Shown in pieces: positions 11,049 through 48,158 of a stretch of 64,000 nucleotides of DNA. This DNA comes from Candidatus Ozemobacteraceae bacterium (GTDB taxonomy: Bacteria; Muiribacteriota; Ozemobacteria; Ozemobacterales; Ozemobacteraceae), in assembly GCA_035388825.1 (NCBI GenBank), contig DAOOQQ010000008.1, positions 14,410 through 78,409 on the forward strand, written 5' to 3'. The notes below the pieces were generated by a model. It was not told the DNA's origin, made no database searches, and worked only from the letters and a program-made list of their open reading frames with translations. Made by a program: the position numbers and the translations under genes. How positions within the stretch are numbered: position 1 is the first letter of the stretch; each line of letters begins with the position of its first letter.

Positions 11049-11069
11049 AAGCGGTCGTTGCTCGGGGCG

Positions 11070-12458
11070 TTAGCGTGCGAGGGCGGATTCGACCTGGGCG
11101 ACGGTTTTGGGGATGGATGGGCCGAGGACGCGGTGACCGTCGGGCGTGACCAGCACGTCGTCCTCGATCCGGATGCCGCCGAATCCGACATATCGATCGA
11201 CGGCGGCGTAGTCGATGAAGGCCGCGTGCCGCTGATCCTTCTTCCAGGCGGCGATCAGGGCGGGAATGAAGTAGACGCCCGGCTCGACGGTCATCACGTG
11301 GCCGGGCCGGAGGCTGCGCGCGAACCGCAGATAGGCGAGGCCGAACTGGTCGCTGCGGGCCGCTTCCTCGCCGTAACCGACTTCGTTCTCGCCCAGCCCT
11401 TCCATGTCGTGCACGTCGAGGCCCAGAGCATGGCCCAGCCCGTGCGGGAAGAACAGGGCATGGGCGCCGACGGCGACCGCCGCCGCGGGCTCGCCGCGCA
11501 TCAGTCCCAGCCCGGTCAGACCTTCGGCGATGGCCGTCGCGGCGGCGAGGTGGATCTCCCGGAACGAGATCCCCGGCCGGATCATGCCGATCGCCTTCTC
11601 CTGGGCCGCGAGCACGACCTCGTAGAGGGCCTTCTGACGCGGCTCGAACCGGCCCGAAACCGGGAAGGTGCGGGTGATGTCGCTGGCGTAATGCCGGGGT
11701 GACTCGGCTCCCGAATCGATCACGAGCAGATCGCCCGCCTGCATGCGGTTCGCGTGGGCGTGGTTGTGGAGCGTCTCGCCGCGGATCGAGAGGATCGTCG
11801 GGAACGACGTGCGCGATCCTGCGGCAGCAACGACCCCCTCGATCGCGCCGACCAGTTCCTGCTCGATCATGCCGGGGCGGAGCCGTTTCAGGATCTCGGT
11901 ATACATCGCGCCGCTGATTTCCAGCGCGGCCTCGATCTCGGCGACCTCTTCGGGGCTTTTGAACAGCCGCTGATCGACGACGGCGCGGGTGAACTCCCCG
12001 GAGGCATACGAGTTTAGCGCCTCGGGGGTGATGCCGAGATGCCGGACCAGGGCCAGTTTCGTTTCGGCGCGGCACTGAGGCAGGAAGCGGATCGGCCGTT
12101 TCGCGCACCGGGCCGCCGCGAGATGGCCTTCCAGGGCCGAAAGGGGTTCGGTTTCGCGCACGCCTGCCGCCGCCGCCCGCGTCGCGAGCGTGGCGCAGGG
12201 GCCCATCCAGATCTCGTCATCGAGCGAGCGGTCCTCTCCGAACACGATCTCGCGGTCGAGGTCGAGATCGATCAGGGCGAACAGGCCGGGCTCGTCGAGG
12301 CCCCAGTAGTAGAGGAACGTGCTGTCCTGCCGGAACGGATACGTGTTCGCCGGGTAGTTCATCGGCGTCTCGCCGTTGCCCGGAAACAGGAGAAGCCCGT
12401 TCCCGAACCGGGCGCGCAGGTCGCGCCGGCGTGCGGTGTAGGTGGCGGCGGAAAACAT
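11070..12458 (-). CDS. pepP: Xaa-Pro aminopeptidase (M24B family)
   Basis: 462 aa. N-terminal creatinase-like domain plus C-terminal M24 pita-bread fold with metal ligands (HGLGHALGLDVHD...EPG...IRIEDDVLVT). Confidence 0.85.
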   Translation of the reverse strand: MFSAATYTARRRDLRARFGNGLLLFPGNGETPMNYPANTYPFRQDSTFLYYWGLDEPGLFALIDLDLDREIVFGEDRSLDDEIWMGPCATLATRAAAAGVRETEPLSALEGHLAAARCAKRPIRFLPQCRAETKLALVRHLGITPEALNSYASGEFTRAVVDQRLFKSPEEVAEIEAALEISGAMYTEILKRLRPGMIEQELVGAIEGVVAAAGSRTSFPTILSIRGETLHNHAHANRMQAGDLLVIDSGAESPRHYASDITRTFPVSGRFEPRQKALYEVVLAAQEKAIGMIRPGISFREIHLAAATAIAEGLTGLGLMRGEPAAAVAVGAHALFFPHGLGHALGLDVHDMEGLGENEVGYGEEAARSDQFGLAYLRFARSLRPGHVMTVEPGVYFIPALIAAWKKDQRHAAFIDYAAVDRYVGFGGIRIEDDVLVTPDGHRVLGPSIPKTVAQVESALAR

Positions 12459-12603
12459 GATGTTCCTCCTCGGGACGGGCCGTGCCCGTCGATTTTCTCC
12501 ATGTTACCCCACGATGCGCCGGAAGGAAAACCGGTCTATACTGGTTCTGGATTTCGTGGGGAGCGGCACCGGCCGTCTCCGGCAGAAACGAGGGAGGATC
12601 CGC

Positions 12604-13395
12604 ATGGGCGACGTCATCTGGTATTTCACGGGAACGGGCAACTCGCTGTCGGCGGCGAAACGCGCGGCGGCGGCGCTTGGCAGCGATGTAGAGGTGCGGC
12701 CGATCGCCGCGGTTGCCGGAACTCCGGTCGAGATCACGGCTTCGACCCTCGGTTTCGCGTTTCCGGTCTACTCGTTCGGCGTGCCGCGCCTGGTGAAGGA
12801 GTTCATCGAGACGGCTTCCGGCATCGGGGCCGAGCGCATCTTCGCGATCGCCACCTGCGGCAACGGCCCGGGCGGAGTCCTGGCCCAGCTCGATGCGCTT
12901 CTCGCGACGAAGGGCGCGCGGCTCGATGCCGCCCTGTCCGTGACCTATCCGGGAAACTGCATTCCGCTGCACCAGGCCCCGCCGGCCGAAAGCTGCGCCG
13001 CGGTGATCGCCCGGGCCGAACAGGCCATCGACGCTTTCATGGCGGAGGTGAAGGCCGGCCGTGACGTCCCGCCCAGTCTGCTCTCCCGCATCGGCGCGTT
13101 CCTGTTCGGGCCGCTCCATGCCGGATTCGTGCGGTCCGTCCGGAAAACCGGCAGAATGTTCCGGGCCGGGAACTCCTGCTCCCGATGCGGTCTCTGCATG
13201 CGCGCCTGCCCGGTGGCCAACATCGCTGCCGGCCCTGATGGGAAGCCCGTCTGGGGAGAACGATGCGAAGGCTGTCTGGCCTGCCTGAACCTCTGTCCTG
13301 TCGAGGCGATCCAGTTCGGGGGACTGACGCGGGGCCGGCGACGGTACCGGCACCCCGCCATCGAGATTGCGGAAATCGCGGCCCAGCGTCGCTAG
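12604..13395 (+). CDS. flavodoxin-like domain + 4Fe-4S ferredoxin domain protein (EFR1-family ferredoxin-like)
   Basis: MGDVIWYFTGTGNS... (flavodoxin-like start) and C-terminal CxxCxxC...C cluster (CSRCGLCMRACPV...CEGCLACLNLCP). Start taken at internal ATG 12604. The track ORF begins at 12442. Confidence 0.7.
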   Translation: MGDVIWYFTGTGNSLSAAKRAAAALGSDVEVRPIAAVAGTPVEITASTLGFAFPVYSFGVPRLVKEFIETASGIGAERIFAIATCGNGPGGVLAQLDALLATKGARLDAALSVTYPGNCIPLHQAPPAESCAAVIARAEQAIDAFMAEVKAGRDVPPSLLSRIGAFLFGPLHAGFVRSVRKTGRMFRAGNSCSRCGLCMRACPVANIAAGPDGKPVWGERCEGCLACLNLCPVEAIQFGGLTRGRRRYRHPAIEIAEIAAQRR

Positions 13396-13400
13396 CCGGG

Positions 13401-14744
13401 TCAGGCCACCGTGGCTGAGCGCCGCTCGGGCTCGTCGAGCAGATGTTTCAATGCCTGGATCAGCTCCATGATCCCGAAGGGTTTGGGCAGGGTCGTCAGA
13501 TACGCGTCCTGGGGAAACCTCTCCCGGACCTCGTTTGCGCCGAGCCCGCTGGCGATGATGATCGGCTGATCCTGTTTGAGGTTCCGGATTTCCGCGAATG
13601 CCTGCTGCCCGTTCATGCGCGGCATCAACAGATCGAGAATCACGGCACGGATCGGCTTGGCGGAGGCGGCGAACCGCTCGACGGCTTCGGCCCCGTCGCA
13701 TGCCGTCAGCACCTCGAACCCGAGACGCTCCAGGATCTGGCGGCCGACCACACGGATGGAATCCTCGTCGTCGACGAGCAGAATGGTGCCCTGGCCGCGC
13801 CAGGCCTCGGCCAGCCGTCCCGGAATCTGCTGCTTTCGCTGTTCCTGGGTCGGGGGCGCCGGGGAACGGTCGGCGGGTGGCGGGACCGGAGCGGAATCCG
13901 TGGCGGTGGGTGCCGGTGAGGGCCGCTGTCTGCTGATCTGCGCCGCTTTTCGCGCGGCATCGTGGATCATGCGGAGCTGGTCGCTGACGGCGGAGGCCGG
14001 CGGCACCGCGAGCTGCAGCATCTCGGTGTTTCCGATGATCGTGGCGAGCAGGTTGTTCAGCTCGTGGGCTGTTGCGGGATCGATGCCCGGTGGGGTATCC
14101 GGGGAATCGCCTCCCCGAAGCGCCGTCACATGCCGTTGATACAGCTCGGCATCGCGCCTGTGGCCGAGGTGCGACCGGAACGGCAGATGGAACGGGTTGT
14201 TCCGCAGCCGGTCTTCGAACCAGACCTGTCGATGGGCGTCCATGGCGGTCGTGAGGGCCGCTTTCGACAGGCTGGCGATCGGGTGGAAACAGGCGATCCG
14301 GACTTGCCCCGCGACGATGAGGCCGTCCAATTCCGCCTCGATTCCGCGCAGTACGGCCGGCTTCCGGTGGGTGGGCGACCAGAGGTGCAGGACGAGGAGC
14401 ATCGGGACGCCGGTTCCGGGGCGGGCCAGAGCCGAGGTGAGGAGCCTGGGGAGGGATCCCGGCTGTTCCGATTCGATCCAGACGAGGCGGCCGTCAGCCG
14501 CCGCCGCCGGGTGATCGAGGCTGCGCAGATCGAGATGCCGCCTCAGAGCTGCGGCATGGCGCGGGGGAAGCCAGCAGATCGTGGGGCGGCTCCGGCAGAG
14601 GGCGTCGATGATGCCATCGGCCATCAGGGAGATTGCCTGGGCGGTGTCCGGGACGATGAGCCCCGTATGCGACCGTTCAGCCAGGGGCCCCCAGGGAAAA
14701 GCGGCTTGGGGAAGGGGCGCGGGCACATGATGGATAGAATCCAT
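13401..14744 (-). CDS. signal-transduction protein: N-terminal sensor-like domain, HisKA-like H-box, C-terminal receiver (REC); no HATPase domain
   Basis: H-box HELNNLLATIIGNTEMLQ, then a Pro-rich linker, then a REC domain (ILLVDDEDSIRVV...LDLLMPRMNG...PKPF). No G1/G2 ATP-binding boxes. Start at MDSIHHVPAP (14744); the track ORF extends to 14894. Confidence 0.65.
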   Translation of the reverse strand: MDSIHHVPAPLPQAAFPWGPLAERSHTGLIVPDTAQAISLMADGIIDALCRSRPTICWLPPRHAAALRRHLDLRSLDHPAAAADGRLVWIESEQPGSLPRLLTSALARPGTGVPMLLVLHLWSPTHRKPAVLRGIEAELDGLIVAGQVRIACFHPIASLSKAALTTAMDAHRQVWFEDRLRNNPFHLPFRSHLGHRRDAELYQRHVTALRGGDSPDTPPGIDPATAHELNNLLATIIGNTEMLQLAVPPASAVSDQLRMIHDAARKAAQISRQRPSPAPTATDSAPVPPPADRSPAPPTQEQRKQQIPGRLAEAWRGQGTILLVDDEDSIRVVGRQILERLGFEVLTACDGAEAVERFAASAKPIRAVILDLLMPRMNGQQAFAEIRNLKQDQPIIIASGLGANEVRERFPQDAYLTTLPKPFGIMELIQALKHLLDEPERRSATVA

Positions 14745-26052: not shown

Positions 26053-26061
26053 CGGAAAGGG

Positions 26062-28137: not shown

Positions 28138-28270
28138 TTCGTGACCGGGGGCTCTTGTTTCCACCTGAAGTCCGTTGTTAGAATGAGAGAGAGGACCCTG
28201 TCCTCTGCTGACCGGCCGAAACGGATCTTTCCTCAACTTCTGCGGTATTGCTTTGTCGGGAGGACGTCGG

Positions 28271-30684
28271 ATGAAGACGTGTATCTTCGGCCGGGGGCGG
28301 ACCCTGCCATCATGTCGCCTCGCAGCCATCGGGATTCTGATGGTTTTCCTGCTTTTCTGTCACGGCCGGGCCTGGGCTCTCAACCAGATCAACAACGGGA
28401 CGTTCCTGAGTGACTGGTCGGGATGGACGATCGACAACCAGGTGCGGCGCGGGTTTCCTCTCGAAGCCTTCTCCTGGGTTGCCACGGAAGGGGCTCCGGT
28501 TGGTTCCATCTTCGGCGGCATGACCACCAACAACCGCCAGGGGGACGGCCTAGTCGAACAGAAGTTCACCACCCCGGCCGGCTTCGTCCGGGCCAGTGCC
28601 TATCTGCAGCACAAGGCCTCCACCAACAAAAAAAGCGGCAAGAACAATCGCACGACCGTGACCCTTCGTCTGGACGGCAGTGCCGCCTACCCGAACGAGA
28701 CGATCATCACGACGTTCCTCAGCCTGATCCAGGATCCCACCGCCGCCTTCCAGACGATGAACTGGACGACGCCGGTCACGCTGCGCCCGGGAACCTCGTA
28801 TCTCTTCCGGCTCTACTGGGATATCAAGACCAATGGCGCTCTCGGGTTCTATTTCGACAACGTCAAGCTGAATATCAGCCCGTCCGGCCTGCGGACGGAC
28901 GACAACGGCACGGACGTGTTTCTGAGCTGGAATCCCAGTGTCGGTGCCGTGGCCCTGAAGGAATACCGGGTGTTCCGGGCGACCACCAGCGGCGGTCCAT
29001 ACACCCAGATCGCCACCACGACGGCGACCACCTATACCGATGCCGCATGGTCTCGGACAATATTTATTACTATGTTGTCCAGGATGTCGAGCTGGTCAGT
29101 GGTGATGTATCCCCCAACAGCGTCGAGGCCGTGTTTTTCAAGATCAAGGTGCGGGACGGTCCCTCGCAGGACATCGCGTATTCCTGGCTGACCGACCGGG
29201 TCGAGGCGAACTGGGACCATCCGAAAGCCTCTCTGCTGCGGTACAAGGTCGCCGTGGGCACGACTCCCGGCGGAAACGACGTCAAGGACTGGACCGATGT
29301 GGGCATGGCGAACACGGTCACGTTCACCGGGCTGAATCTTGCGAGCGGTATGACCTACTACACGACGGTCCAGTCCCAGGATGCGCTCGAGATCGACCAG
29401 TGCAAGGGCTCCAGCAACGGGTTCATGATCCGGACCGATCCCGTGTTCGTCGATACGGCCTCCTCCACGTTTTTCAACAACTCCCGGCTTCAGACGATGA
29501 TCGATTTCACGACCGACCCGGGCTCCATCCGGCCGAAAACCTTTGCCAGCGGGGGCTTCTGGCCTCGCCGCGTCTCCGTGACGGTTCGGGAGCCGGGCAT
29601 CACGGACCGCATCAACGCCCCCTGCCGCATCACCTTCAACATCCCGGCCGGGGCCCCGGCTGCGTTGGCCGAGATTCGCGTCGCCGACGATCAGGGAAGC
29701 AAAGTGCCGCGCGTCGTCGGCGGCACCCTGGCGAACCCGGTGGTGACCTTCCTCGTCAACATGCCCAAGAGCGATTCACGGATCTACTATGTGTATTGGG
29801 GTAATGCCGGGGCTCCGGAGCCGGCCTATGGCTTCTCGAACGGCGTCACCCAGACGGCCGCCCTCCAATATTCGCAGTACTATTCAAGAAAGCTCCTCGC
29901 AGCCGGAATCGAGTCGGTGCCGCTTGCCTTCAATTACGGGTATCGGGAGTCACCGGCCGTCATCTCGGGAGATCCCGATCCGGGAAATACGGCGCCCGAA
30001 AGTTGGGCCGAGGAGTTCGAGTATTTCAATGCGGCCGGCGGATATGCGAACAGCGCCGGCTGGCGGAACGATTGCCGCGGACAGCAGATCACGAACCTGT
30101 TCGGCGGCACCTTCTGGTTTTTCGGAACCAACACCCCGAACTGGTGGATCTGGAGTAACGACCTTCTGTACAACGCGACGGCGAACGCGAACAACTGGAG
30201 CTCCTTCGCGGGGGCTACGGCCCAGAGCTTCGCGACCTTCACGGGAAACGGCCGGTGGCAGGGCGGTCTGATCGCTCCGCTCTGGGTCGATCTCACCTAC
30301 AACGACGATACCGTCATCGATACCCCCGGTGTCTTTCGCGACACGTATGCCAACCGGGAGGTGTTCACCTGGCGGAGCTCGATGAATATCGACCCGACCG
30401 ACGATACCTATGTGTTTCAGACGACCCTGTACCAGACGGGGGATATCGCGCATCGGTACGATTACCTGAGCCCGAGCTCCGTGACGACGGCGAATGCCTC
30501 GGGACATCCCATTCTGAACGATATCAACGCCGTCGGCATTTCGGCGAACAATGGCACCAACTATCTGACGAACACGCCGCTCGAGCTTGGCCTGGGCCAG
30601 ACGCCCTCCTCTTTTTTTCAGTGCGATCGCGCTTTCGACGGCTACTATACGGTCGGGACGATCGAAAATCCGGTGGGCGGCTGA
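28271..30684 (+). pseudogene. exported multidomain protein (CBM4/9-like, FN3-like, DUF2341-like) interrupted by a -1 frameshift near 29036
   Basis: Signal peptide MKTCIFGRGRTLPSCRLAAIGILMVFLLFCHGRAWA after GGGAGGA RBS. Frame 2 reads ...YRVFRATTSGGPYTQIATTTATTYTDAA. The protein-like sequence then continues only in the 28423 frame: (M)VSDNIYYYVVQDVELVSGD, an FN3-type continuation. DUF2341-like segment AEIRVADDQGSKVPRVVGG...SRIYYVYWGNAGAPEP. Ends at TGA 30682 in frame with the next ORF. Confidence 0.6.
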
Positions 30685-30711
30685 TCGAATGTCGCCGATT
30701 TCGATTCGAAG

Positions 30712-33700
30712 GTGTTCGACTCCCGCCTGGATACCCCCGACTGGGTCCAGTTGGAGTACGATTGCACGGGTGATGCGACCGGCCGGCTCCTGTTCTACGT
30801 CCGGACGGGAAATACCCCCCTCCCGGAGCTTGGCGGCTGGAATTCGTGGGTGAATATAGCTACTGCTACGGCTGGTGGCTTTGCGACGATCACCAGTTCC
30901 GATCTTCGATATTGTCAGTACAAGGTCATCTTCCAGCGCAATTCGAACGGCCCCATGCCCGTTCTGAACGAAGTGCGCCTCATCTGCGGCGGTCTGAGCA
31001 TCGAGGCGATCACCACCGACACCCCGGACGGCGTCTGCCAGGGCCAGACCGGCATTCCCGTCGGCGTGACGCTCAAGAACACCTACATCAATCCGGTGTC
31101 GCTGACGAATGCGACCCTCAGCTTCTCGCTCGGGAGCTACACCTTCACGCTCGTGTCCCCAACGTTGCCTGTCACGATCAATCCCGGGGTGGCGACAGCT
31201 GCCACCTTCACCGTGTCGGTTGCCGATGCCTCTCCGGTCGGCATGGCGGTCATCCAGGCTCTGGCCACCGGCACATCCGGACCGAGCACCTTTTTCGATC
31301 GGGACGCCCAGATTCCGGGAAGCTGGCTGGTCCGGAAAAAGGCGACGATGGTGATCAAGGAGGTCCGGACGGTACCCACGGCGGTCAACAAGGGCCAGAA
31401 CGGTATCCCCGTCTTCATCGATCTCGAGAACACCGGCGAAACACCGCTGGTGTTCAACGGGGCGAGCCTGACGTTCTCCCTGGGGTTTTACACCCAGACC
31501 CTGATATCGCCCGCGCTCGGCACCGTCATTCCCGGCCCCGGGAGTCTCACCGTCCAGATTTCGGTCAACGTTCTGTCGAACAGCCCCTCGGGCATCTCGA
31601 CGATCGACGCGACCGCCTCGGGAACGAATGCGTTTTCCGGCAAGCCGGCAAATGCCGCAGGGGCGGTCGTGAAGGATGCCTGGACGATCCAGTCGCCTTC
31701 CGATCTCGTTCTCGTGTCGATCACGGCCTCGTCGACGGTTTATCGCGGCCAGACAGGGATTCCGGTGTTTCTGAACGTCCAGAACATCAAGGAAGCTCCG
31801 GCTTCCTGGACGAGTTCGACCCTGCTTCCCTATTTCACGCTTGGCACCTATGACGCCGTGTATCCCGTCACGCCATTCCCGGTCACGGTTCTGGGAGGCC
31901 AGTCTCTCACGGTTCAGTATGGCGTGGATATCTCGCCGCTTTCGGCAACGGGGACCTCCTCGGTCGATGCGCGTATCGACTGGCTCGACGGCAACATGGG
32001 CGATGCGAAATTCTATGAACGGGCCCTGCTGCCGGCCACCTGGACGATCATGGCCGAGGTCGTGAAAAGCTACAAGGACGCGGCCGGCCTGTATCCGTCG
32101 ACCAGCTTCAACCGCCCCAGCGTCGGTTCGACGATGATCTATGCGAAGGGGGAAAACCTCGCTCCGTTCAAGGATTTCGTCGTCCGGTGGTATGACCCGT
32201 CCGGCACCGAGGTGGCCTCCTCGAATCCGCCGCTGACGGCCCTGGCCTCCGGCACCCTTGCCCACCAGTATGCCATCGGCCCCACGTCCCCCTTCGGCCA
32301 GTGGACGATCCGCGTCACGAACCCGCTCAACACCATCGTTTCCTGTCAGACGTCCTTCGACGTCGTGAACGGGGCGAGCCTCACGGCATCGCTTTCCCTG
32401 CCCCTGACCGTGTCCGTCGGGCAGCCGTTCCAGGCAGTCATGTCCTGTTCGAACGTCGGCGGCGCACGCATCCGGGACGCGTATCCGGGCGTGCTGGCCA
32501 GTTCCGGCACGGGGATCGCCACGCTGACGGCCGGGCCGACGCCGGATTCCCAGGATATTCTGGGGTATACATCGGCGACATTCACCTGGATGTGGCGGGC
32601 GACGAGCGCGGGCACCTTCGTTGCATCGGATGTTGCCTTCGGTGTCGACGCGAACGCGGATCTTGCCATCCGGAGCGCGACGGCGACGAGCAACGTCTGC
32701 GTGATCCAGACGCCGCCGAGCCTTTCCCTGATCTCGCTGACGGCAACCCCGACCCTGGTCTACCGGAACCAGAAGAACATCGAGGTCGAGGCGCGGGTGC
32801 GGAACTCGGGGCAGGCAACGGCCATGCTGACGACCGCCAGCCTGTCGTTCACGCTGGGCTCCTATACGCAGGCGATTGCCACGCCTTCGGTCCTGCCCGC
32901 GTCGATTCCCGGGAACAATGCCGTGGCGACGATCACGTTCATGGTGGACGTGGACTTCGATTCCCCCGAGGGCCTTGCAACGCTGACGTTCGGCATGCGG
33001 GCCTACGATGCCAACGTTCCGGCATCGGTGACGATTCTCGTGCCTGCGTCCCCAAACGACCGGTGGACGATCGGATCGATCGGTATCCAGCTCTCCCGGG
33101 AGACGGATTTCTCCACCGAACAGTATGCGTTCAACCGTGGTCAGGATGTGAAGATCCGTGCGTTCGGCCTGCCGCCGTATTCCACGGGATACAGGTTCAG
33201 GCTGTACAGCTCGACGATTCCCAACACCTCGCCGGCCCCGGCCGGATGGACCGATGTGTCGAACCGCCTGACCGCGACCTCGAAGGGATGGGTGGATTAC
33301 GTCTATACGCTTCCGGCCGGAGCTGCGCTGACGCGCTGGAGTGTCGAGATCGAAACCGACCCTGACAGCAACAGTACGACGCGCGACCAGCTCCTCGCCG
33401 TGAACTATTTCGATGTCCAGACGCCCGGAAACCTGATCGCCAGCCTGACGATCTCGCCCAATCCGGTGTTCGTCGATGACACCGTGACCGTCACGCTCGT
33501 TGCCAGCAATACGACACCGTCGGGAGCGAGCGTCTCCCCGGCGACCCCTTCGGCTCTCGTCCCGACCGCGGCAAGCACGGGAGCCATGTCGTATCAGACG
33601 GGCCCCGCGCCCGCCTCTTCCACCGTGACGGCGCTGGCATCGACCACCTTCGTCTGGACCTACAAGGCGACGGACGACACGGGAACGGTCGGCAGTTACT

Positions 33701-36700
33701 CGCTGACGGCCCAGCTTGCCTGCTCGGTCTACGGTGTGGATGCCAACACAGGAACTCCGATCAACAGCCAGGCGGCCGTTTCCAACGGGCTGAAAATCTA
33801 CCGGCGGGCCATGGCTCTTTCCCCGTCGGCATTCGACCTGGGCTCGCTTGCGCCAGGGGAGACCACTTCGACCATCCCCTTCCAGGTCGGCAACGTCGGC
33901 AACCTCGTCCTGAGCGCCGTGAAGTGGAACAAGGTCGATCTGAACGGCGTTTTCCCCCTGACGACTTCTCACGCCTACGTGACGCTGGCCCCGTCTCCGA
34001 TCGGAGCGATCAATCCCGACGCCAGCGCCGCCGTCTCGATTGCGATGACGGTTCCCTACAATCAGGCTTCCGGCACCTATGCCACGACGATGTCGGTGTA
34101 CGAAGACATGAATGGTAACGGGAATCCCGATTCCATCGAACCGTATAAGATTTTCACCGTCACGGTGAACGTGCTGAGCCGGCCGAAAGTCTTCGTCATC
34201 GAGAATCTGATCGATCTCGGCAACTGGAGCCCCGGTCAGACGACCAATGCGAAGAGTGTGAACCTGTTCAACGGAGGAAACCAGGCGGTCACGAACGTCA
34301 AATTCGTTCAGACGATCGGAAGTGCAACCTTCCTGGCCGTTTCTCCGAATCCCGGAAATCTGACGATCGGGGAATCCCGCGTAGCAAGCGTCTCCGCCGC
34401 GATTCCTGCCGCCGCCACCCAAGGGATTTACGTCGCGACCTGGACGATGTGGGCGGATACGGATGCCGACGGGGCGATCGATGCCGGAGAAGCGAGTGAC
34501 ACGTTCCAGGTGCGGGTCGGTGTCGGCACCAAACAGTTCACTCTGTCCCCTCCCGTGCTTCCTGCGGGGCTCGGGACGCCTTCGACGATCATCTCCGGGC
34601 TCAAGGAGACCATCACCAATACCGGTTCGCTGTCTCTGACGAATCTCAAGGCTTCGCTTCAGGCCCTGCAGGATGGGATGGGCAACTCGATCGCCACAGA
34701 CAATATCTCCATCATTCCGCCTGCTTCGGTCGTGACGACGGGTACCGCGACCGTCGCCCTGTTCGTCCCTCCCGGCATGATCATGGGCGCGTATTCGGGA
34801 GTTCAGACTCTGTACGAAGACTCGAACGGGAACGGCGTGGCCGACCCCGGCGAAGCCTCGGGAACATTCACCCTGACCGTCAGCATTCCCGCCTATCCCG
34901 CGGTTCAGGTGCTCGCTCCGACCGTGGAACTGGGCGATCTTGCCCCGGGAGCGGTTGTGACGGTTCCCTTTGCCTGCCGTAACTCGGGCAATGTCACGCT
35001 GTCCCGGCTCATGTGGACCAAGCTGCCTTTGGTATCTGCAGGCGGCAACACGATCTCGACGCCGAGCTACGATTTCCCGCCCGGAGTGCCGTTTACGGCG
35101 GCTCCCGGAGCCATCTTCACGAGGGATGTGAGGCTGATCGTGAACGTGGCTCAGCCCCCGGGGGATTATACCGGCAGCTCGGCATGGCTGTTCGATGACA
35201 CCGATCTGGGGCTCGATCGTGACACCGGCGAGCCCCAATCCCCGTTCATCATCAAGTGCCGGATCGGCTCTGCGGCTTTGGACATCGAAAACCTGTCGTA
35301 TGCCACGAGCGGCCCGCCCGCCACCTACTCGGCCGAAACGGCGATCAAGTTCCGCAACACCGGCTCGTTGACGATCACGAGTCTCGTGGCGACCTGTTCC
35401 GCTCTTGTCGGGCCGCAAACGATCCCCGCCTCGGCGAGCTTCATCTTTCCGGTTTCCGGTTCTTTCGTGCCGGCGCCCCTCGGCAGCATCCTGGTCGGCG
35501 GCCAGAAGTTCGGGTACTGGCGCGTGTTGGTTCCGGCCAACAGGCTTCCCGGGCTCTACACGGGCACCCTGACCGCCTGGAATGATATCAATGGCGACAA
35601 GCAGCTTCAGAGCTACGAGGCGAGCGACACTTGCGCGATCAATCTGACGGTGACCTCGAACAAGGCGATCAATGTCCTCCAGTCGAATCTCGACCTGGGG
35701 TGGACGACGGAGAACTCCGTCGTCAGCGGCACGATCGAGATCGTGAACACCGGAAACCAGGATCTGACCATGGTCAGAGCCGTCATTGCCACGCTCTCGA
35801 GCGGGATCGACGTGATTCCGGCTTCTTCGATCGTGTATCTTCCGGCCGTGCCGGGTGGATTCACGGTTGGTCAGTCGCAACTGGCGACGATCACGATCAC
35901 GGTGGGCTCTCCGAAGGCGGATGGCACGTATGTCGCAACCCATCGCATCTATGACGATTACAATGGTGCCGACGGGAGTTATAACCCCGGCAATGAGGAA
36001 AACGACACCTTCACGATCACGCTGCGCATCGGCCACAAGAGCGTGTTCGAGACGGATCCGACGAATCCGCCGGTGGATTTCGGCCCGCAGGATCCGGGAG
36101 GGACGGTTGTGAAGAGCTTCACCGCCTACAACGGATCGGCGATTCCGCTGACGAAGCTGCGGTGGAAGAATCTCGTCCCGCTGACGGGGACCGGATATAC
36201 CTTCCCTCTCGCGTCTCTGACCTGGTCACCCGCCGCACCTTTCGGCATTCCGGGAAGCGGGAACATCTCCTGCGCCGCAACCGTCGAACTGGCGAGTTTC
36301 GTTCCACCGGATGTGTATACGGGGGATTCGGCGGTCTGGGAGGATGAGAACGGTGACGGGGTCATCCAGGCTGCCGAGGCCACCGCGAATTTCCAGGTGA
36401 AACTGACGGTGAATCCGCGGCCTCTGATCACGCTTCTGCCCGGAATGGTCGATTTCGGCCGGATCGGCCGGGGCCAGGCCTCGGGCTGGGTCGGAATTTG
36501 CTATTACAACGCCGGCAATGTCCCGCTGAATGCCTTTTCCTGGACGTTCGCGAATGTCGGGGACGGGGCCGGACACACCATCCCCGCGGCGGTGATCGCC
36601 TTCGATCCGTTGTTCAACCCCGATCCAACGCCGGTCGGCTCCTACGGCACGACGACGGTCCGGATCGGCCCGGTCGATCCCCTGCAGGAGCTTGGAGTCT

Positions 36701-37317
36701 ATGATCAGTCGGGGCCGCAGGTGATATCGGCCGGCGGAGGCGTGGTCTCGGATGATTGTCAGTTTCGGTGCGAGATCATCCAGGGCGGGCCGATCGGCCT
36801 CTCGAGTGGGACGGTGTATCAGGAAATCGCGACATTCACGTTCCAGCCTCCCGAGTCCCGGTATGTTCTTTCGGCGTATGTCTGCCCAGGAACCGGCTCC
36901 GCGCGGATTTCCTTCTTCGACACGACGGAGGGGGGGGCGATCGTCTTCCAGCCCTGGGTCGAGATTGATTCGGACGGCCGCGTGCAGGGCAGCACGACGG
37001 GGTCGGGGGAGTTCGGTGTCGTCGAAGCCTGGCCCGCCCAGTTCGGTGCGAACGTTTATATGTGGTATAGAATATATGTGTCGTTCGAATACTACCTCGA
37101 CACGTCGACGGCGAGCAAAACCTACATCATGCTTGGCAACACGTCGCCGGTATCGCCGCCGACGGCTTCCCACGCCGTCTGGTTCGATGGGGTGCAGCTG
37201 GAAAAGCCGGATAATCAGACGCAGAAACGTCCGACGGCGTTCGCCCCCGGGAAAAAGATCGTGTCGCCCTACACCGAACTGGACCTGTCGGGGAAAAAAT
37301 ATTATTTCGAATGGTAA
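30712..37317 (+). CDS. giant repetitive surface protein segment (about 20 CARDB/Ig-like ~100-aa repeats plus a C-terminal CBM-like domain); same frame as the upstream ORF across one TGA
   Basis: 2201 aa. Recurring module [I/V]..GQ[T/N]GIPV.V.L.NTG..P..L..A.L.F.LG.YT..L.SP. Ends ...HAVWFDGVQLEKP...KKYYFEW, paralogous to the C-terminus of the 38051-46777 gene. No separate RBS is visible. GTG 30712 abuts a GAAGG, and the first ATG lies far downstream. The antisense 2028-aa ORF is an artefact. Confidence 0.75.
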   Translation: MFDSRLDTPDWVQLEYDCTGDATGRLLFYVRTGNTPLPELGGWNSWVNIATATAGGFATITSSDLRYCQYKVIFQRNSNGPMPVLNEVRLICGGLSIEAITTDTPDGVCQGQTGIPVGVTLKNTYINPVSLTNATLSFSLGSYTFTLVSPTLPVTINPGVATAATFTVSVADASPVGMAVIQALATGTSGPSTFFDRDAQIPGSWLVRKKATMVIKEVRTVPTAVNKGQNGIPVFIDLENTGETPLVFNGASLTFSLGFYTQTLISPALGTVIPGPGSLTVQISVNVLSNSPSGISTIDATASGTNAFSGKPANAAGAVVKDAWTIQSPSDLVLVSITASSTVYRGQTGIPVFLNVQNIKEAPASWTSSTLLPYFTLGTYDAVYPVTPFPVTVLGGQSLTVQYGVDISPLSATGTSSVDARIDWLDGNMGDAKFYERALLPATWTIMAEVVKSYKDAAGLYPSTSFNRPSVGSTMIYAKGENLAPFKDFVVRWYDPSGTEVASSNPPLTALASGTLAHQYAIGPTSPFGQWTIRVTNPLNTIVSCQTSFDVVNGASLTASLSLPLTVSVGQPFQAVMSCSNVGGARIRDAYPGVLASSGTGIATLTAGPTPDSQDILGYTSATFTWMWRATSAGTFVASDVAFGVDANADLAIRSATATSNVCVIQTPPSLSLISLTATPTLVYRNQKNIEVEARVRNSGQATAMLTTASLSFTLGSYTQAIATPSVLPASIPGNNAVATITFMVDVDFDSPEGLATLTFGMRAYDANVPASVTILVPASPNDRWTIGSIGIQLSRETDFSTEQYAFNRGQDVKIRAFGLPPYSTGYRFRLYSSTIPNTSPAPAGWTDVSNRLTATSKGWVDYVYTLPAGAALTRWSVEIETDPDSNSTTRDQLLAVNYFDVQTPGNLIASLTISPNPVFVDDTVTVTLVASNTTPSGASVSPATPSALVPTAASTGAMSYQTGPAPASSTVTALASTTFVWTYKATDDTGTVGSYSLTAQLACSVYGVDANTGTPINSQAAVSNGLKIYRRAMALSPSAFDLGSLAPGETTSTIPFQVGNVGNLVLSAVKWNKVDLNGVFPLTTSHAYVTLAPSPIGAINPDASAAVSIAMTVPYNQASGTYATTMSVYEDMNGNGNPDSIEPYKIFTVTVNVLSRPKVFVIENLIDLGNWSPGQTTNAKSVNLFNGGNQAVTNVKFVQTIGSATFLAVSPNPGNLTIGESRVASVSAAIPAAATQGIYVATWTMWADTDADGAIDAGEASDTFQVRVGVGTKQFTLSPPVLPAGLGTPSTIISGLKETITNTGSLSLTNLKASLQALQDGMGNSIATDNISIIPPASVVTTGTATVALFVPPGMIMGAYSGVQTLYEDSNGNGVADPGEASGTFTLTVSIPAYPAVQVLAPTVELGDLAPGAVVTVPFACRNSGNVTLSRLMWTKLPLVSAGGNTISTPSYDFPPGVPFTAAPGAIFTRDVRLIVNVAQPPGDYTGSSAWLFDDTDLGLDRDTGEPQSPFIIKCRIGSAALDIENLSYATSGPPATYSAETAIKFRNTGSLTITSLVATCSALVGPQTIPASASFIFPVSGSFVPAPLGSILVGGQKFGYWRVLVPANRLPGLYTGTLTAWNDINGDKQLQSYEASDTCAINLTVTSNKAINVLQSNLDLGWTTENSVVSGTIEIVNTGNQDLTMVRAVIATLSSGIDVIPASSIVYLPAVPGGFTVGQSQLATITITVGSPKADGTYVATHRIYDDYNGADGSYNPGNEENDTFTITLRIGHKSVFETDPTNPPVDFGPQDPGGTVVKSFTAYNGSAIPLTKLRWKNLVPLTGTGYTFPLASLTWSPAAPFGIPGSGNISCAATVELASFVPPDVYTGDSAVWEDENGDGVIQAAEATANFQVKLTVNPRPLITLLPGMVDFGRIGRGQASGWVGICYYNAGNVPLNAFSWTFANVGDGAGHTIPAAVIAFDPLFNPDPTPVGSYGTTTVRIGPVDPLQELGVYDQSGPQVISAGGGVVSDDCQFRCEIIQGGPIGLSSGTVYQEIATFTFQPPESRYVLSAYVCPGTGSARISFFDTTEGGAIVFQPWVEIDSDGRVQGSTTGSGEFGVVEAWPAQFGANVYMWYRIYVSFEYYLDTSTASKTYIMLGNTSPVSPPTASHAVWFDGVQLEKPDNQTQKRPTAFAPGKKIVSPYTELDLSGKKYYFEW

Positions 37318-38050: not shown

Positions 38051-41000
38051 TTACCAAGTATAATAAGGCGTTCCCCGGAACAGGCCGTTCTGCCGGGTCG
38101 GCGTGACGACACCCCGTTCGGGGGTCCAGGGAGTTGCCTCCTGCGCCGGTGAAAGCCCGGGAAGGGTGACGGCTTTTTCCAGTTGGATTCCGTCGAACAT
38201 CACGGCCTCGCCCGTCTTCGTACTGAAAAGCCCGAGTTCCACGGTGAAGCTTCCCAGAAGCGCGCTCGAGGTCGAGGTGAAGGCGAACGAGTACCGCTGC
38301 CAGCGGTTGATGGAGATATTGATTTCTTCGGCTCGGATCCCGTTGGTGCCATACTCGTGCGTCGTGGAGGCCGTGCCGCACCATTCGGTGACCCGCAGGA
38401 GGACCCGTGAGGTCGAAGCGGGATTGGGATCGACATGGAGGGGAGCCGTGGCGAGAAGATAGCTGCTGAAGACATACGCCGTGCTCGTCGCGATTTTGTC
38501 CGGCCCCGTGATGGTCTGATACACGACTTCGGGGATGCCGGCCGGTCCCGTGACCTGAACCGGGATCTGAACGGTGGGACTGGCTTCGTTCTGGAAGAGG
38601 GCATCCCGGATCGTCATGGTTCCGACGTGGAAGCCGATCGGCGTGGCGGGGTCGATCGTGAGACTGCATGTGCCGTTGACCGTTCCGCCGATTGCCAGGG
38701 TGGGCATGCCGAACAGGACATTTGCTGCGGAAAAGGGAATGATGCCCGGGCCGACGAGATTGGTACCGACGGCGTCGAGGGCGATGGGGTATGGGCCGGT
38801 GTTCGTCAGGGTGAACCCGAAGCTCACGGTGCTTCCCTGGGCTGCGGAAATCGGGGTGAAGACGGATGGCGTGATCGTGAATTTCGTCGGGGGGACTTCC
38901 ACATACACCATCAAAGGGGCGGTTGCGGCCGGGTGATCGAGGTCGATCACCGTCTGTGTCGCCGTATAATACCGGCCGGCGGGCTGCATGGACGGGATGG
39001 TGACGGACAGCGATGCATCGACCGTTTCCATCACCTGGATGTTGACGGAGGGAGGCGTCATCCTCAGGTTCGAGGCCGGAATCGTGAATGCCCCGAGGAT
39101 TGGGGCTGCCGTGACCATCTGCACGTTCGTCAGGGGATTGTCACAGATGCTGGTGATGTGGAAACTCCTCGTGGCCGTCGTGTTGCGGGGCGCAACGATG
39201 ATCAGGGGATTGGGGGCCGTGACCATTTCGTAGGACAGGGCGCCGCCGGAAGTGACGATCAGGGTGAGAACGAACGAGTCCTGGGGTTCGAGCGGTTCGC
39301 GGACGCCGTTGCCGTTCAGATCCTCGTAGACCCACTGTTCTCCCGAAAACGTTCCGGAGAGGGTCGTCGGCGTCGTGTGAATACTTACCGATATATCACG
39401 CGTGACGCCCGGATTCAGGGCGGGTGGGGCGACCTGGTTGGGCAGGAAGCGGATGTCGGGCGTCCCGATGGCACCAACCGGCTGCTTGTCGATCTTCAGG
39501 TTCGACAGGAAGACGGTGCCTGTATTGCGGACCGTGAATGTCTGGGTTGCCGTGTCGTTGCCCTTGGCGATGTTGCCGAAATTGATGGTGGTGGCAAGGA
39601 CGTCGACGGATTTCGCGCCCACGGAGATCTTGACAGGGAGCTTCCAGAAAGATTCTCCCGCATCGAGGCCCGGGGTTCCGCCCGTTTCTTCCCAGAACGT
39701 GACCTCTCCGGAATAGTTTCCGGTCGGGGTGGTCGTCAGCGTGGTGACGGTGAAGGTGGCGACCTGGGAGGAAGGACCGGTCCAGGGAAGGGCCCAGGGA
39801 GAGGGCGGGACCTGGAGGCTGAGCTGCCCCGTGGGAATCGAGTTTCCGCCATCTTTCAGGGGGGAGAGGAGGTATTTCAGGTTGTTGATCTGCTTGTTTC
39901 CGACATTGAATGCCGTGAAGGTCTTCGCAATGGTTTCGCCCTTGTTGATGCCCCCCAGATCGAGAGGAGAGGCTTCGAACCGCAGCGCCAGCTTTTCCTT
40001 TACGAGGAGGTGAAGGGTGATGGTGTCGTATTTCTCGGGGGACGTGTAGGTCTCATCGGGAAGATCGTCCTGAAATACGCGCAACGGGCCAGAATACAAG
40101 CCCGGCCCCTGGTTTTCGGGAATGGCGACCTGGATGGAGGGAGCCCACGTGACTCCTGCCGTGAGCAGGCCGATCGGATCGGGATACGAGTAGATCTGGA
40201 AGAACGGCGTGAGTGCCGGATACGGGGCTTGGATGAGATTCGGCTTTTCGTAGAGGAGCCGGGTCAGGGTGCGCTCGCCGATATTTTTCACGCTGAAGAT
40301 GACGGGAGGGGTTTTCTCGCCGGGGGCCGCTGAGCCGAGATCCAGCGGGGACGAGTCGAGGATGTCCACCCCATCCACGCCGACCTCGAGGTACCCCGTG
40401 ACCGTGTCGGATGCTTCCCCGGCGTCGATGACGGTGTCGTTGTCCAGGTCGTTCCAGAGTGTCCAGCTGCCCCAGTAGGTGCCGGGTGTGGCGGCGAGCG
40501 GAATTGGATTGATCGAAAGGGTTGCGACGGTGGCCGGTGGGGTGAGATCCCAGCCGTTTCCGCCGTTTCCCGGATTGAATGCCGGTTGTGTCCCGGGGGG
40601 GGATACGGCGAATGTCGTCACCCCGTTGCTCAGTGGGCTGAGACACTTCCATTTCAAGTTTTGGCAGTCGAGATTGCCGATGTTGACGACATGTACCCCG
40701 ATCTCGACGGTTTCGTTCGGCACACCTGCGCCGAAATTGGCGATCTCCTCGACGATGGCGAAGTTGCGTGAATCGAGAATGTTCGTCGATATCGTGATCG
40801 TATCCCTGGCTTCTCCTGCATCCAGGAGGCCGTTTCCGTTTCGGTCGTTGAAGATCGTCTGGACTCCCGAATACGCTGGCCCGGGGTTGCGGTCCTGATC
40901 GAACGGGATGTCGACGTAGAAGACGAAGGTGGTGAACAGGCCCGTTCCCACCGTGGGGAGCGGTGCCGGTGCGATCGTGACGTTCGTTGCATCGATCGTC

Positions 41001-44000
41001 CGGCCGCTGACGGTGAGGGAGGACGAAACGAACTGGAGGCGTTCCAGCGGAAGCCCGCCGGTGTTCGATAACCGCAATGCCGGAGAAAAGGTGACTTGGC
41101 CGGGGGATACATTGGGAAGCGTGACGGTCGCCGAAACGATATCCAGGGACTCGTTCGGACCCACGATGAGCGAAAGGCTGACGGCGGAAGAAGCCTCGCC
41201 GGGATCGGCAAGCGTGTCGACATCCTTGTCGTTGAGAAACGTGCCCGTTCCAACATAGGTTCCCGGGGTCTGCGCGTTGGGGATCTGCACCGAAAAGTTC
41301 ACCCAGCGGGCATCTCCGGGACTCATCAGGCCGAAAATGACGGGCTGAAGGCTTGCCGAAGAACTCGGGATCGTGTTTCCCAGATACTTCAGATCCGAGA
41401 TGACGAAGCGGACCTTGATCTGATCCATGTTCCCGATGTTCGTCACCATGAGGGATGCCGTGGCGGTGCGGTCGTTGGCGAGCCAGCTTCCCAGGAAAAG
41501 AGAGGTGTGGTTTGCCCGCAGCAGTTCCGTCGGGGGAACGACGACGCGCATCAGAAACTGCGCGATGGCATCTCCGATCGATGCCCCGTCTTGGTTGGTG
41601 TCCTCGAAAACGAATTGGTAGGCGGTATAGGTGCCCGGCTCCTGCATCGGTGGAATCGTGACGCGCAGCCCCCCCGTCGTGGAGTCGCCGACGGCGAGGG
41701 CGCCGATCATATCCGGTGTTCCGACGCTGCCGTCGGGCGGGATGAAGTAGGGATCCGAGGCAAGATTGTGAAACTCCCACTTCAGATGCTCGAGATCGAG
41801 ATTTCCGGTGTTCGTGATGGTTACGGAACGACTCGGACTGGTTTGCCCGGGACCCACCGTTCCCATGTCGACCAACCCGGGAGTGACCTGGAGCGCCTTC
41901 TGGGAGATGCTGACCCCCGTCGAACGGGTATCCGGCACATGACAGTCCTGGCCGTCGAGAAGGGAGACGCCCGAAGCGAGAACCCCGTTTTCGACCGGCC
42001 CGTGGAGATAGAAGCGTGTGCCGGCACTTGTCATCTGAGTCGGTGTGTAAAGCGCCGTGAATGAAACCGTTTCCCCGCAGGAAAGGGTGTTCGAGGCTGG
42101 CTGGGGATTCTGGATGCAGACGCCGTTTCCCGTACAGTCGCCTCCGGGGGCTTTTTCCCAGATGTGCGGAATGATGCGGAGGCGCTCGTGGTTTTCGGAC
42201 TGCCCCGTGAGATACACGTCGTCGAGCAGGAGGTGATCCATTCCCCCGGCATCCGCCTGGAGTCGGAAACGGATCCGGACATTCGAATTGCCCAACAGAT
42301 CTTCGGGAAGAGCGATGAGCAGGTCTTTCCAGATGCCTATTCCCAGCTGGGCCGTCTCCGTGAACAGACTCGTCCAGGTGACGCCGTCGGGGGAGGTCTC
42401 CACGACGAAAACCGGGGCACCTGCGAAGACCGTGGAATACCTCGCGTGGAGGGAAACGCCGGTCATGTCGCGGAGATTGACCACCCGCGTGAGGGTTTCG
42501 GCTCCGGCAGCATTGTAGGAGAGATGGACGAACTGGCTGGGGGGATTCGCCGCGTAGGCTGCCGCCGTGTCGAGGATTTCGGTGCCCGGTCCTGCCGTCG
42601 TCCAGGCGGACGAGAAGATGCCGGCTTCGAACAGGTCGCCGAACACCGAGGAGGTGACGGACAAGGCGGCGGTCATGGGGGTTCCGAGACTGCTCGTTGC
42701 CGGCGAAAGCTCGAAGGAGGGCATCGGAAAAGGTTTTTCCAAGATTCGGGCCGACCCCGTCGCAAGGTGGGTGGCCCCGTTCCTGACCTGAATCGTGCCG
42801 AGGCCATACCGGAACGCCGCCGTCGGTGTATAGGTCTGGGTGAGGCTCCCGCCGGCGTTGGTCGAGACCGGCAAGGAGGCGATGGGGGCCGCGTCGGGGG
42901 GGAACGCATCATACCAGCACAAGGAAAGCGTTTGGAGAGAGGGGAAGCCTGTTCCCAAGACCGTGATCGGCTGGCCCCGTGCGAATCGGCTACAGGGAAT
43001 CGTGGCCGCACCATCGGAAAACGTCTGCAGAGACGAGGTCGACACCGTCCACTGGTCGTTCAGCGTGGCTCCGACGATACTCTGGACGCCGGTCGCGACG
43101 ACGCTCGTCGCCGTTGCGGCGGCATCGATCGTCGTCAGCCCGGCTGCGGCGGCAACCGAAACGTCCACGCTCAGGGTTGCGATCAAGGTCGTGACCGGAA
43201 TCGTTTCTTCCCCCAAGCCGATCGCGTTCGGCGCATTCATGAACAGCCGGATGTCGTCGAAACACAGGCGATTGTTGTTGGTCGACCAACCGTACCAGAA
43301 GTTGGCCTCGAACTGGATCTGCCATCCGGGGCCGGTCTGATACCCCGACAAATCGTAGGTTTCCTCGTGCCAAAGGTCATCGTTGGGGCCGTTGGCCGGG
43401 TAAAAAATCAACTCGTTCCAGGCGGCTCCGTCATACAGTTTGACTCGCCCCCAGTCATAATTCGTTCCCGCGGTCGTTCCCGTGCAGCCATTGTCGAAAT
43501 ATCGATGATAGGTGAGTTGAAGGTGGTGATATCCGCTCGTGTCGATCGACCGGGCGGCTTGGGCGAACTTGTTCAGGTTGAAGGTGTTCCCGAAGTCCAG
43601 ACCGCGGAAACAGAGAGACTGTGCTGCGAGAAGCGGCGACGAATCCGGACCGAGTTGAAGGGGAGAGGTATCGTTATTGTTTCTGGAGATATAAATGCCA
43701 TTGACGCCGGCATCGTTCGTCGCCCAGCCGGGGAAATTGGGTTGACTGATGTCTGCGAGCAGGGAGAAGCCGTTTCCGTAGACCGAGCCTTCCCAATCCT
43801 CCCAGAAAATGTAGCAATTCTTCCGGTTCGCGGCGAGATCGGCACTCGTAGCGGCGGTGTTCCCATAGTAGACGTAATATCCTTCGTCGCGGCCATACGG
43901 CAAAATCTCGTTCCGGATCTTGAAGATAGATTTATTCGAGCTGATATAATGCCGATCGAGTTGCACCCAGCCCGTTCCTTCGATCCACTGCATCAAGCGC

Positions 44001-48035: not shown

Positions 48036-48158
48036 GCGATCCCTCTTCTCCGGCATCGGGACGGGGCGGGAGAGTCCACCGGCACGATGCCGTCATTCTG
48101 TCATGCAAAGTATAACATTTCCTCGAATGATATGAAAAGTATGTATTTTAATAATAAA

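What the first reader, a model, noticed from the sequence alone, without database searches (positions are those of the whole stretch)
28271..30684. First giant-protein gene is interrupted by a -1 frameshift at ~29036
The protein-like reading (signal peptide, CBM4/9-like domain ending GFYFDNVKLN, FN3-like ...YRVFRATTSGGPYTQIATTTATTYTDAA) switches frame exactly inside an FN3 consensus. That consensus continues as (M)VSDNIYYYVVQDVELVSGD in the -1 frame. Both flanking alternative frames are non-protein-like. This is either a sequencing indel, a genuine inactivating mutation, or programmed slippage.
Basis: seen in the sequence. Interest (0 to 1): 0.55.

Follow-up and report, generated by a model that had tools for sequence, protein, structure and literature searches.

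The report
Giant surface-protein gene broken by two mutations
A 9-kb gene for a giant secreted protein in an uncultured Ozemobacteraceae bacterium carries a real one-base deletion and, 1.6 kb downstream, a premature stop codon, so it is a recently inactivated gene, which is an ordinary event.

Summary
The frame switch is real. The window lacks one G at 29045: it reads GATGCC-GCATGG, where the closest relative reads GATGCCGGCATGG. That relative is L001, a Ca. Ozemobacteraceae MAG with 89% nucleotide identity. The deletion lies in the E-F loop of an FN3 domain.

The gene does not end at 30684. That TGA is a second lesion (TGG, Trp, in the relative), and homology continues in the same frame to 37317. 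In L001 the whole stretch is one intact 3013/3019-aa ORF.

The broken allele is not an assembly artefact. The exact 306-aa product, including its out-of-frame tail, is on six contigs. The three retrieved loci, under three sample accessions, are 100% identical to the window.

Recoding is not supported. There is no slippery heptamer or homopolymer at the site, and no significant downstream structure. TGA ends most long ORFs in the window. The downstream pieces have no Shine-Dalgarno sequence or signal peptide.

dN/dS against L001 is 0.07-0.10 in all three pieces, so the lesions are young.

Verdict: a recent strain-specific pseudogene of a giant surface protein, comparable to ebhA/ebhB in Staphylococcus aureus. 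Interest is low.

The parts
28258..28263 (+). Shine-Dalgarno GGGAGG, 7 nt before the ATG at 28271
   Evidence: Read from the sequence. No comparable motif precedes 29047, 29131 or 30712.
28271..28378 (+). Sec-type signal peptide (36 aa, ...GRAWA|LNQ)
   Evidence: By inspection of the translation: basic n-region, hydrophobic core LAAIGILMVFLLF, A-x-A cleavage motif. Conserved in homologs. No signal-peptide predictor was run.
28271..29044 (+). Gene piece 1: codons 1-258 in native frame (window frame 2)
   Evidence: Collinear with L001 ORF 5030..14089 and with distant homologs. GC3 0.82. dN/dS 0.066.
28379..28885 (+). N-terminal beta-jelly-roll domain (aa 37-205), CBM-like fold
   Evidence: AlphaFold model pLDDT 81.8. 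Foldseek PDB hits to CBM61 2xom, CBM4 1gu3, CBM16 2zez, phage tailspike C-terminal domains, MAM and the gingipain adhesin, TM 0.45-0.58. No Pfam CBM hit.
28877..29148 (+). FN3 domain interrupted by the frameshift in its E-F loop; strands F and G are encoded in the other frame
   Evidence: Pfam fn3 match spans the repaired junction, aa 204-271, E 1.3e-4, below the gathering score. Model of the homologous domain of P0005 has pLDDT 93.2 and seven strands; the window junction aligns between strand E (52-55) and strand F (61-71). Top fold hits are FN3 domains, TM about 0.8.
29044..29046 (+). Lesion 1: one G missing (ortholog GCC GGC ATG, window GCC G-C ATG)
   Evidence: It is the only indel in the 9-kb gene alignment with L001 whose length is not a multiple of three.
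29045..29191 (+). Out-of-frame tail: 48 codons (AWSRTIF...SRIPG) and TGA; the end of the 306-aa truncated product
   Evidence: Translation. No counterpart in the ortholog. GC3 phase is wrong for this frame.
29047..30681 (+). Gene piece 2: 545 codons in window frame 1
   Evidence: Collinear with L001 and distant homologs. dN/dS 0.066. Annotated separately in public records as 545 aa (HOY66032.1) or 517 aa.
30682..30684 (+). Lesion 2: in-frame TGA where the ortholog has TGG (Trp), a G-to-A nonsense change
   Evidence: Homology to P0003/P0006 and L001 continues in the same frame on both sides of it.
30685..37317 (+). Gene piece 3: 2210 codons plus TAA; Ig-like/MG2-like repeats and a C-terminal jelly-roll-like end (...VWFDGVQLEK...YYFEW*)
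   Evidence: Collinear with L001. dN/dS 0.10. Weak Pfam MG2 and HYDIN/VesB-like Ig hits. Annotated as the 2201-aa HOY66033.1.

Best explanation
Window 28271-37317 is a single gene of about 3015 codons for a giant secreted or cell-surface protein. Its order is: signal peptide, CBM-like jelly-roll, FN3, then many Ig-like repeats. The organism is an uncultured Candidatus Ozemobacteraceae bacterium (Rifleibacteriota). In this strain the gene has been knocked out by two ordinary chromosomal mutations. The first is loss of one G at 29045, which shifts the frame in the E-F loop of the FN3 domain. Translation from the only good ribosome-binding site then yields 258 native residues plus 48 nonsense residues and stops at 29191. 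The second is a TGG-to-TGA nonsense change at 30682-30684. The remaining roughly 2760 codons have no Shine-Dalgarno sequence and no export signal of their own. Even if they are translated at a low level, they cannot reach the surface. Shown here: both lesions, their reproducibility, the intact ortholog, and the absence of recoding signals. Inferred: loss of function, and that the event is recent, because the pieces still look as constrained as a working gene.
For: Ortholog L001 (DATCTT010000032.1, 89% nt identity) has one intact ORF 5030..14089, annotated by NCBI as the 3013-aa HEY9068920.1. In 9 kb the only frame-breaking indel is the missing G, and the only internal stop is TGA versus TGG. 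A second assembly of the sister strain (L010, JGI 3300022663) is also intact across both sites. The exact 306-aa product, tail included, is recorded on 6 contigs. The three retrieved loci come from ENA ERZ761564 (cov 8.7), JGI 3300025855 and JGI 3300010355. They are 100% identical to the window over 11-21 kb and have the same 306/517/2201 gene calls. The recorded sources are NCBI, JGI, ENA, Logan and GEM. All other 1-2 nt indels against L001 in 17 kb lie between genes, so the assembly is not generally indel-prone. There is no X_XXY_YYZ heptamer or run of 4 or more identical bases at the site, and the downstream fold has z = -1.2. TGA ends 21 of 28 long high-GC3 ORFs. The GGGAGG motif occurs only before 28271. 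dN/dS is 0.066/0.066/0.10 at dS 0.385. About 2.8% of random substitutions would create a stop, so one nonsense change corresponds to roughly 35 neutral substitutions. That is about 0.4% divergence, or about 1% of dS.
Against: No reads were available, so within-population polymorphism and read-level support could not be examined. Several of the assemblies may derive from the same or related libraries, because they carry no SNPs at all. The gene shows no sign of relaxed constraint: dN/dS is 0.09, and the amino-acid relative-rate test gives 24 window-derived against 16 L001-derived changes, which is not significant. That is what a very young pseudogene looks like, but it is also what a still-functional gene would look like. 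No expression data exist.
Confidence: 0.85

Rival explanations
1. Functional gene fission or truncation. The 306-aa secreted N-terminal fragment (jelly-roll plus partial FN3) is the working product, and possibly internally initiated downstream pieces as well. On this reading the locus is now two or three genes rather than a dead one.
For: Public annotations call three separate ORFs. The signal peptide and the complete jelly-roll domain lie upstream of the frameshift. The pieces show low dN/dS.
Against: The ortholog and all distant homologs are continuous across both sites. The FN3 domain is cut in its E-F loop and loses strands F and G, so it cannot fold. The downstream pieces have no SD and no signal peptide. 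Low dN/dS measured against L001 mostly reflects the time before the lesions arose.
Confidence: 0.07
2. Sequencing or assembly artefact. The true genome would have GCCGGC and TGG and an intact gene.
For: MAG-derived sequence of modest coverage (8.7x in one assembly). The assemblies are identical, so they may share reads.
Against: Both lesions recur in all three retrieved loci, which have different lengths and break points, come from different pipelines and carry three sample accessions. The deletion is not in a homopolymer. No other coding indel appears in the 17 kb comparable with L001. Two independent errors in one gene would be needed, one an indel and one a substitution.
Confidence: 0.04
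3. Recoding. Full-length protein would still be made by a -1 ribosomal or transcriptional slip near 29045 plus UGA read-through as Trp, or by a reassigned TGA.
For: The ortholog has Trp exactly where the window has TGA, which is the residue near-cognate read-through would insert. Undiminished purifying selection would fit a gene that is still read.
Against: No slippery heptamer lies within the 6-nt interval where homology forces the shift, there is no homopolymer, and the downstream structure is not significant. The frameshift is absent from the ortholog, whereas programmed shifts are conserved. TGA terminates most long ORFs in the window, so it is not reassigned. From general knowledge, not tested here: UGA followed by U is an efficient terminator in bacteria. 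Two independent inefficient events would multiply to a negligible yield.
Confidence: 0.02

Closest known systems
Staphylococcus aureus ebh split into ebhA/ebhB (strains Mu50, N315)
   Same: A giant cell-surface protein gene is intact in some strains. In others a frameshift mutation breaks it into adjacent same-strand ORFs that are annotated separately (PMC3868527, citing Clarke et al. 2002).
   Different: The protein family is unrelated and the organism is Gram-positive. Here there are two lesions (a frameshift and a nonsense codon), and the organism is an uncultured Rifleibacteriota member known only from metagenomes.
Strain-specific pseudogenes of large adhesin or surface-protein genes (for example shdA, ratB and sivH in Salmonella Typhi; from general knowledge, not checked here)
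   Same: A long surface-protein gene is inactivated by point lesions while the close relative keeps it intact. The lesions are few and young.
   Different: Those cases are linked to host restriction in cultured pathogens with known ecology. Here the selective context is unknown.
Programmed -1 ribosomal frameshifting (dnaX, IS3-family transposases, phage tail chaperones)
   Same: Two overlapping ORFs with the downstream one in the -1 frame, and a protein homology that continues across the frame change.
   Different: No X_XXY_YYZ slippery site, no stimulatory structure and no conservation of the shift in the ortholog. The shift falls inside a folded domain rather than at a domain boundary.
Phase-variable contingency loci (slipped-strand mispairing in surface-protein genes)
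   Same: A surface-protein gene is switched off by a 1-nt indel.
   Different: The indel is in a GG dinucleotide within GCCGGC, not in a homopolymer or short tandem repeat. A second lesion (the nonsense codon) is also present, and repeat slippage could not restore it.

Membership tests
Unitary pseudogene (recently inactivated gene) | Intact, collinear ortholog in a close relative | tested here: met
   L001 has a single ORF 5030..14089 (3013-aa HEY9068920.1) at 89% nt identity. L010 is also intact over both sites.
Unitary pseudogene (recently inactivated gene) | One or more disabling lesions relative to that ortholog | tested here: met
   1-nt deletion at 29045 and TGG-to-TGA at 30682-30684.
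Unitary pseudogene (recently inactivated gene) | Lesions are real, that is, reproducible in independent sequence data | tested here: met
   The exact product is recorded on 6 contigs. The three retrieved loci carry three sample accessions and are 100% identical. Read-level independence could not be checked.
Unitary pseudogene (recently inactivated gene) | Relaxed selection (raised dN/dS, further lesions) | tested here: not met
   dN/dS is 0.07-0.10 in all pieces. The relative-rate test gives 24 versus 16, not significant. This is compatible only with a very recent event. It does not bear on whether the gene is broken.
Unitary pseudogene (recently inactivated gene) | No full-length product made | not testable with these tools
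   Needs a proteome or ribosome profiling.
Programmed -1 ribosomal frameshift | Slippery heptamer X_XXY_YYZ at the shift site | tested here: not met
   The only heptamer in the 777-nt overlap is CCCGGGA at 28786, 260 nt upstream of where homology requires the shift.
Programmed -1 ribosomal frameshift | Downstream stimulatory RNA structure | tested here: not met
   Folding 29048-29140 gives z = -1.23; 23 of 200 shuffles fold at least as well.
Programmed -1 ribosomal frameshift | Frameshift conserved in orthologs | tested here: not met
   The ortholog and all homologs are in frame.
Phase-variable contingency locus | Indel lies in a homopolymer or short tandem repeat tract | tested here: not met
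   No run of 4 or more identical bases in 28990-29110. The site is GCC(G)GC.
TGA reassignment (code 4/25) or selenocysteine | TGA not used as a terminator; in-frame TGAs common; for Sec, Cys or Sec in orthologs | tested here: not met
   TGA ends 21 of 28 long ORFs. There is a single in-frame TGA in 3015 codons, and the ortholog residue is Trp. No SECIS search was done.
Fibronectin type III domain (the domain that is cut) | Seven-strand beta-sandwich with FN3 sequence signature | tested here: met
   The homolog domain model has pLDDT 93 and TM about 0.8 to FN3 structures.
   No Pfam CBM hit even at E <= 1. There is only a fold-level resemblance to several jelly-roll CBM families.

The most novel reading that the evidence does not exclude
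The two 'lesions' are tolerated because a trace of full-length protein is still made, through a non-canonical -1 slip at GCC-GCA-UGG plus near-cognate Trp read-through of UGA. That would throttle an expensive 3000-aa surface protein rather than abolish it, and would explain why all three pieces still look fully constrained. A milder variant is also possible: the knock-out is adaptive, for example escape from a phage or predator that uses this protein. It might be coupled to the strain-specific 10.3-kb segment next door, which carries a different 3018-aa giant protein.
Probability: 0.03. Interest if true: 0.55.

Novelty: new member of a known kind. Interest (0 to 1): 0.12.

Why it matters
The practical value lies mainly in annotation. 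Three 'hypothetical proteins' in public records (306 aa; 517 or 545 aa, HOY66032.1; 2201 aa, HOY66033.1) are fragments of one disrupted giant gene and should be flagged as a pseudogene. Protein-family and pangenome analyses of Rifleibacteriota would otherwise count them as three genes. Biologically it is one more example of giant surface-protein genes being gained and lost between close strains of an uncultured lineage. It opens no new question.

Tried and rejected
- A metagenome-contig scan with the repaired protein found only two distant FN3 relatives (32-33% identity), so it gave no extra close strains.
- Exact-product look-ups for the 3018-aa minus-strand ORF and for the 545-aa start variant found nothing. 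The 306-aa and 2201-aa products did.
- The search for homologous proteins returned no hit closer than 47% identity. The close ortholog came only from the genome-contig scan and the cluster look-up.
I modelled the exact N-terminal domain, and the FN3 domain of homolog P0005, instead.
- The hypothesis that the adjacent 3018-aa ORF is a recent duplicate making the broken gene redundant is rejected. It is only 23-28% identical in repeat regions.
- The hypothesis of recurrent frameshifts in homologs is rejected for P0005. Its odd C-terminus is a GC-rich contig-end stretch with no homology in any frame. The odd tail of P0129 is likewise the last 88 nt of a contig.
- A transcriptional slip at the A7 run 28628-28634 is rejected, because homology stays in frame 2 for another 410 nt.
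- A literature search for the sample accessions found nothing.
- The promoter/terminator scan of 27700-31000 found nothing above shuffle expectation.

Full report
**Observation**

Frame 2 from ATG 28271 encodes a signal-peptide-like N-terminus, a domain ending GFYFDNVKLN, and an FN3-like stretch ending TTYTDAA. It then runs into 48 residues with no homolog and stops at 29191. Frame 1 is protein-like only from about 29047 (MVSDNIYYYVVQDV...) and runs to a TGA at 30682-30684.

Third-codon-position GC supports the switch. It is 0.82 in frame 2 before 29044 and 0.80 in frame 1 after it. A Pfam fn3 match spans the repaired junction at aa 204-271 (E 1.3e-4, 22.5 bits, just under the gathering score).

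**Homologs**

A search with the repaired protein found relatives of 37-47% identity from Candidatus Rifleibacteriota and unnamed metagenomes. All of them read straight through the junction, for example TSFTDTSPPAAEAIYYTVADVD.

The same alignment showed that P0003 and P0006 continue past the window's 'C-terminus'. Translating across the TGA gives ...TVGTIENPVGG*SNVADFDSKVFDSRLDTPDW.... This matches ...TVGTISGGGGQQTVAHFESMIFDSRTSKPDW... in P0003, in the same frame. So the 2201-aa ORF 30712..37317 is the continuation of the same gene.

**Close ortholog**

A scan of species-representative genomes found one close relative, L001. It is DATCTT010000032.1, the Candidatus Ozemobacteraceae MAG SMAG_U7338.
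- It aligns to window 23252-37841 at 89.3% and to 48210-50957 at 91.2% nucleotide identity.
- It carries one uninterrupted ORF 5030..14089, annotated by NCBI as the 3013-aa HEY9068920.1.
- In the 9-kb gene alignment there are 923 substitutions, two 3-nt indels and one 1-nt gap. The window reads GATGCC-GCATGG where L001 reads GATGCCGGCATGG (...TYTDAGMVSDNIYYY...).
- At 30682-30684 the window has TGA where L001 has TGG.
- A second assembly of the sister strain, L010 (JGI 3300022663; 1 mismatch in 3671 nt to L001), is also intact across both sites.

**Is the lesion real or an artefact?**

The exact 306-aa product of piece 1, including its out-of-frame tail, is on six contigs in the public gene index.
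- The three loci retrieved are ENA ERZ761564 NODE_335 (coverage 8.7), JGI 3300025855 and JGI 3300010355. They have different contig lengths and break points.
- They are 100% identical to the window over 11-21 kb and show the same 306/517/2201-aa gene calls.
- The cluster look-up lists NCBI, JGI/IMG, ENA, Logan and GEM as sources. It names the NCBI entries HOY66032.1 and HOY66033.1 of a Candidatus Ozemobacteraceae MAG.
- All other 1-2-nt indels between the window and L001 in the 17 kb they share fall between genes. The assembly is therefore not generally indel-prone.
- The deletion is not in a homopolymer.

I cannot see reads, and the assemblies may share libraries. I therefore keep a small residual probability for an artefact.

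**Recoding**

- The zero-frame/-1-frame overlap contains one canonical slippery heptamer, CCCGGGA at 28786. It lies 260 nt upstream of the 6-nt interval (29042-29047) where homology forces the shift.
- There is no run of four or more identical bases nearby.
- The 93 nt downstream fold no better than shuffles, z = -1.2.
- TGA terminates 21 of 28 long high-GC3 ORFs in the window, so it is an ordinary stop here.
- A strong GGGAGG precedes only ATG 28271. Nothing similar precedes 29047, 29131 or 30712, and those pieces lack a signal peptide.

**Age**

- Nei-Gojobori dN/dS against L001 is 0.090 overall (dS 0.385). It is 0.066, 0.066 and 0.100 for the three pieces.
- An amino-acid relative-rate count polarised with distant homologs gives 24 window-derived against 16 L001-derived changes, which is not significant.
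- About 2.8% of random single-base changes in this gene would create a stop codon. One nonsense change therefore corresponds to roughly 35 neutral substitutions, or about 0.4% divergence. That is about 1% of the synonymous distance to L001.

The gene was under strong purifying selection for almost all of its history and was disabled very recently.

**What the gene is**

- The N-terminal domain (aa 37-206) models with pLDDT 82 as a beta-jelly-roll. Its best PDB matches are CBM61, CBM4 and CBM16, phage tailspike C-terminal domains, MAM domains and the gingipain adhesin, with TM 0.45-0.58.
- No Pfam CBM profile matches. 'CBM-like fold' is therefore as far as the evidence goes.
- The homologous FN3 domain of P0005 models at pLDDT 93 with seven strands and matches FN3 structures at TM about 0.8.
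- The window's junction aligns to the loop between strands E and F. The truncated product therefore loses strands F and G of that domain and everything after it.
- The rest of the protein gives only weak MG2 and HYDIN/VesB-like Ig hits. No NCBIfam family matches.

**Interpretation**

The locus is a strain-specific, very young pseudogene of a giant surface or secreted protein. It carries two independent point lesions. The best-known parallel is the split of S. aureus ebh into ebhA and ebhB by a frameshift in strains Mu50 and N315 (PMC3868527).

The rival readings are a functional fragment, an artefact, and recoding. None is excluded absolutely without reads or proteomics. Each fails at least one direct test.

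**Context**

Window segment about 37880-48145 carries a different 3018-aa giant protein on the minus strand. It is only 23-28% identical to the broken gene in repeat regions. The segment is missing from L001. Giant surface-protein content therefore differs between these two close lineages in two ways. Whether the neighbouring gene compensates for the lost one is speculation.

Noticed in passing
window 37880-48145: A 10.3-kb segment is absent from the sister-lineage locus L001 (L001 14614 to 14709). It holds a second giant gene on the minus strand (38051..47107, 3018-aa ORF; DUF2341, choice-of-anchor-D and Ig-like hits) and a 204-aa ORF (47442..48056). Both edges carry similar AT-rich 'AAACAATA.AAACC / AATAATAAAGCCCCC' sequence next to terminator-like hairpins. 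It is a strain-specific gain or loss of a giant surface-protein gene right beside the broken one.
   Followed up: partly
The 2201-aa 'second' ORF is the same gene.
   Followed up: yes
window 29042-29046 / L001 5819-5824: In the ortholog the deleted G sits in the palindrome GCCGGC, a NaeI/NgoMIV-type recognition sequence. The deletion destroys it. This is probably coincidence.
   Followed up: no
window 28628-28634: An A7 run lies inside piece 1 (AAC AAA AAA AGC, ...TNKKSG...). It is in frame and conserved as KK in L001. It is a potential slippage tract but not the site of the shift.
   Followed up: partly
L008 10001-13123 (ENA ERZ21831104 ctg97266l, 654-kb contig): The distant homolog P0003 ends at 1040 aa inside the Ig-repeat region. 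It is followed immediately by an unrelated sigma-54 activator gene on the other strand. It is either a naturally short version or a truncated remnant of the giant gene in another Rifleibacteriota-like genome.
   Followed up: partly
L009 5808-6039 and L010 3672-3759: Two metagenome contigs carrying homologs end in stretches unrelated to the gene. L009 ends in GC-rich low-complexity sequence and L010 in 88 nt of non-matching sequence. These give the called proteins (P0005, P0129) spurious C-termini. They look like contig-end assembly artefacts, not frameshifts.
   Followed up: yes
window 29085-29110: Just 40 nt downstream of the deletion there is a dense cluster of substitutions plus a 3-nt insertion relative to L001 (ELVSGDVS versus DVNNDVS). 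It lies in the predicted F-G loop of the FN3 domain, which is variable among homologs too.
   Followed up: no
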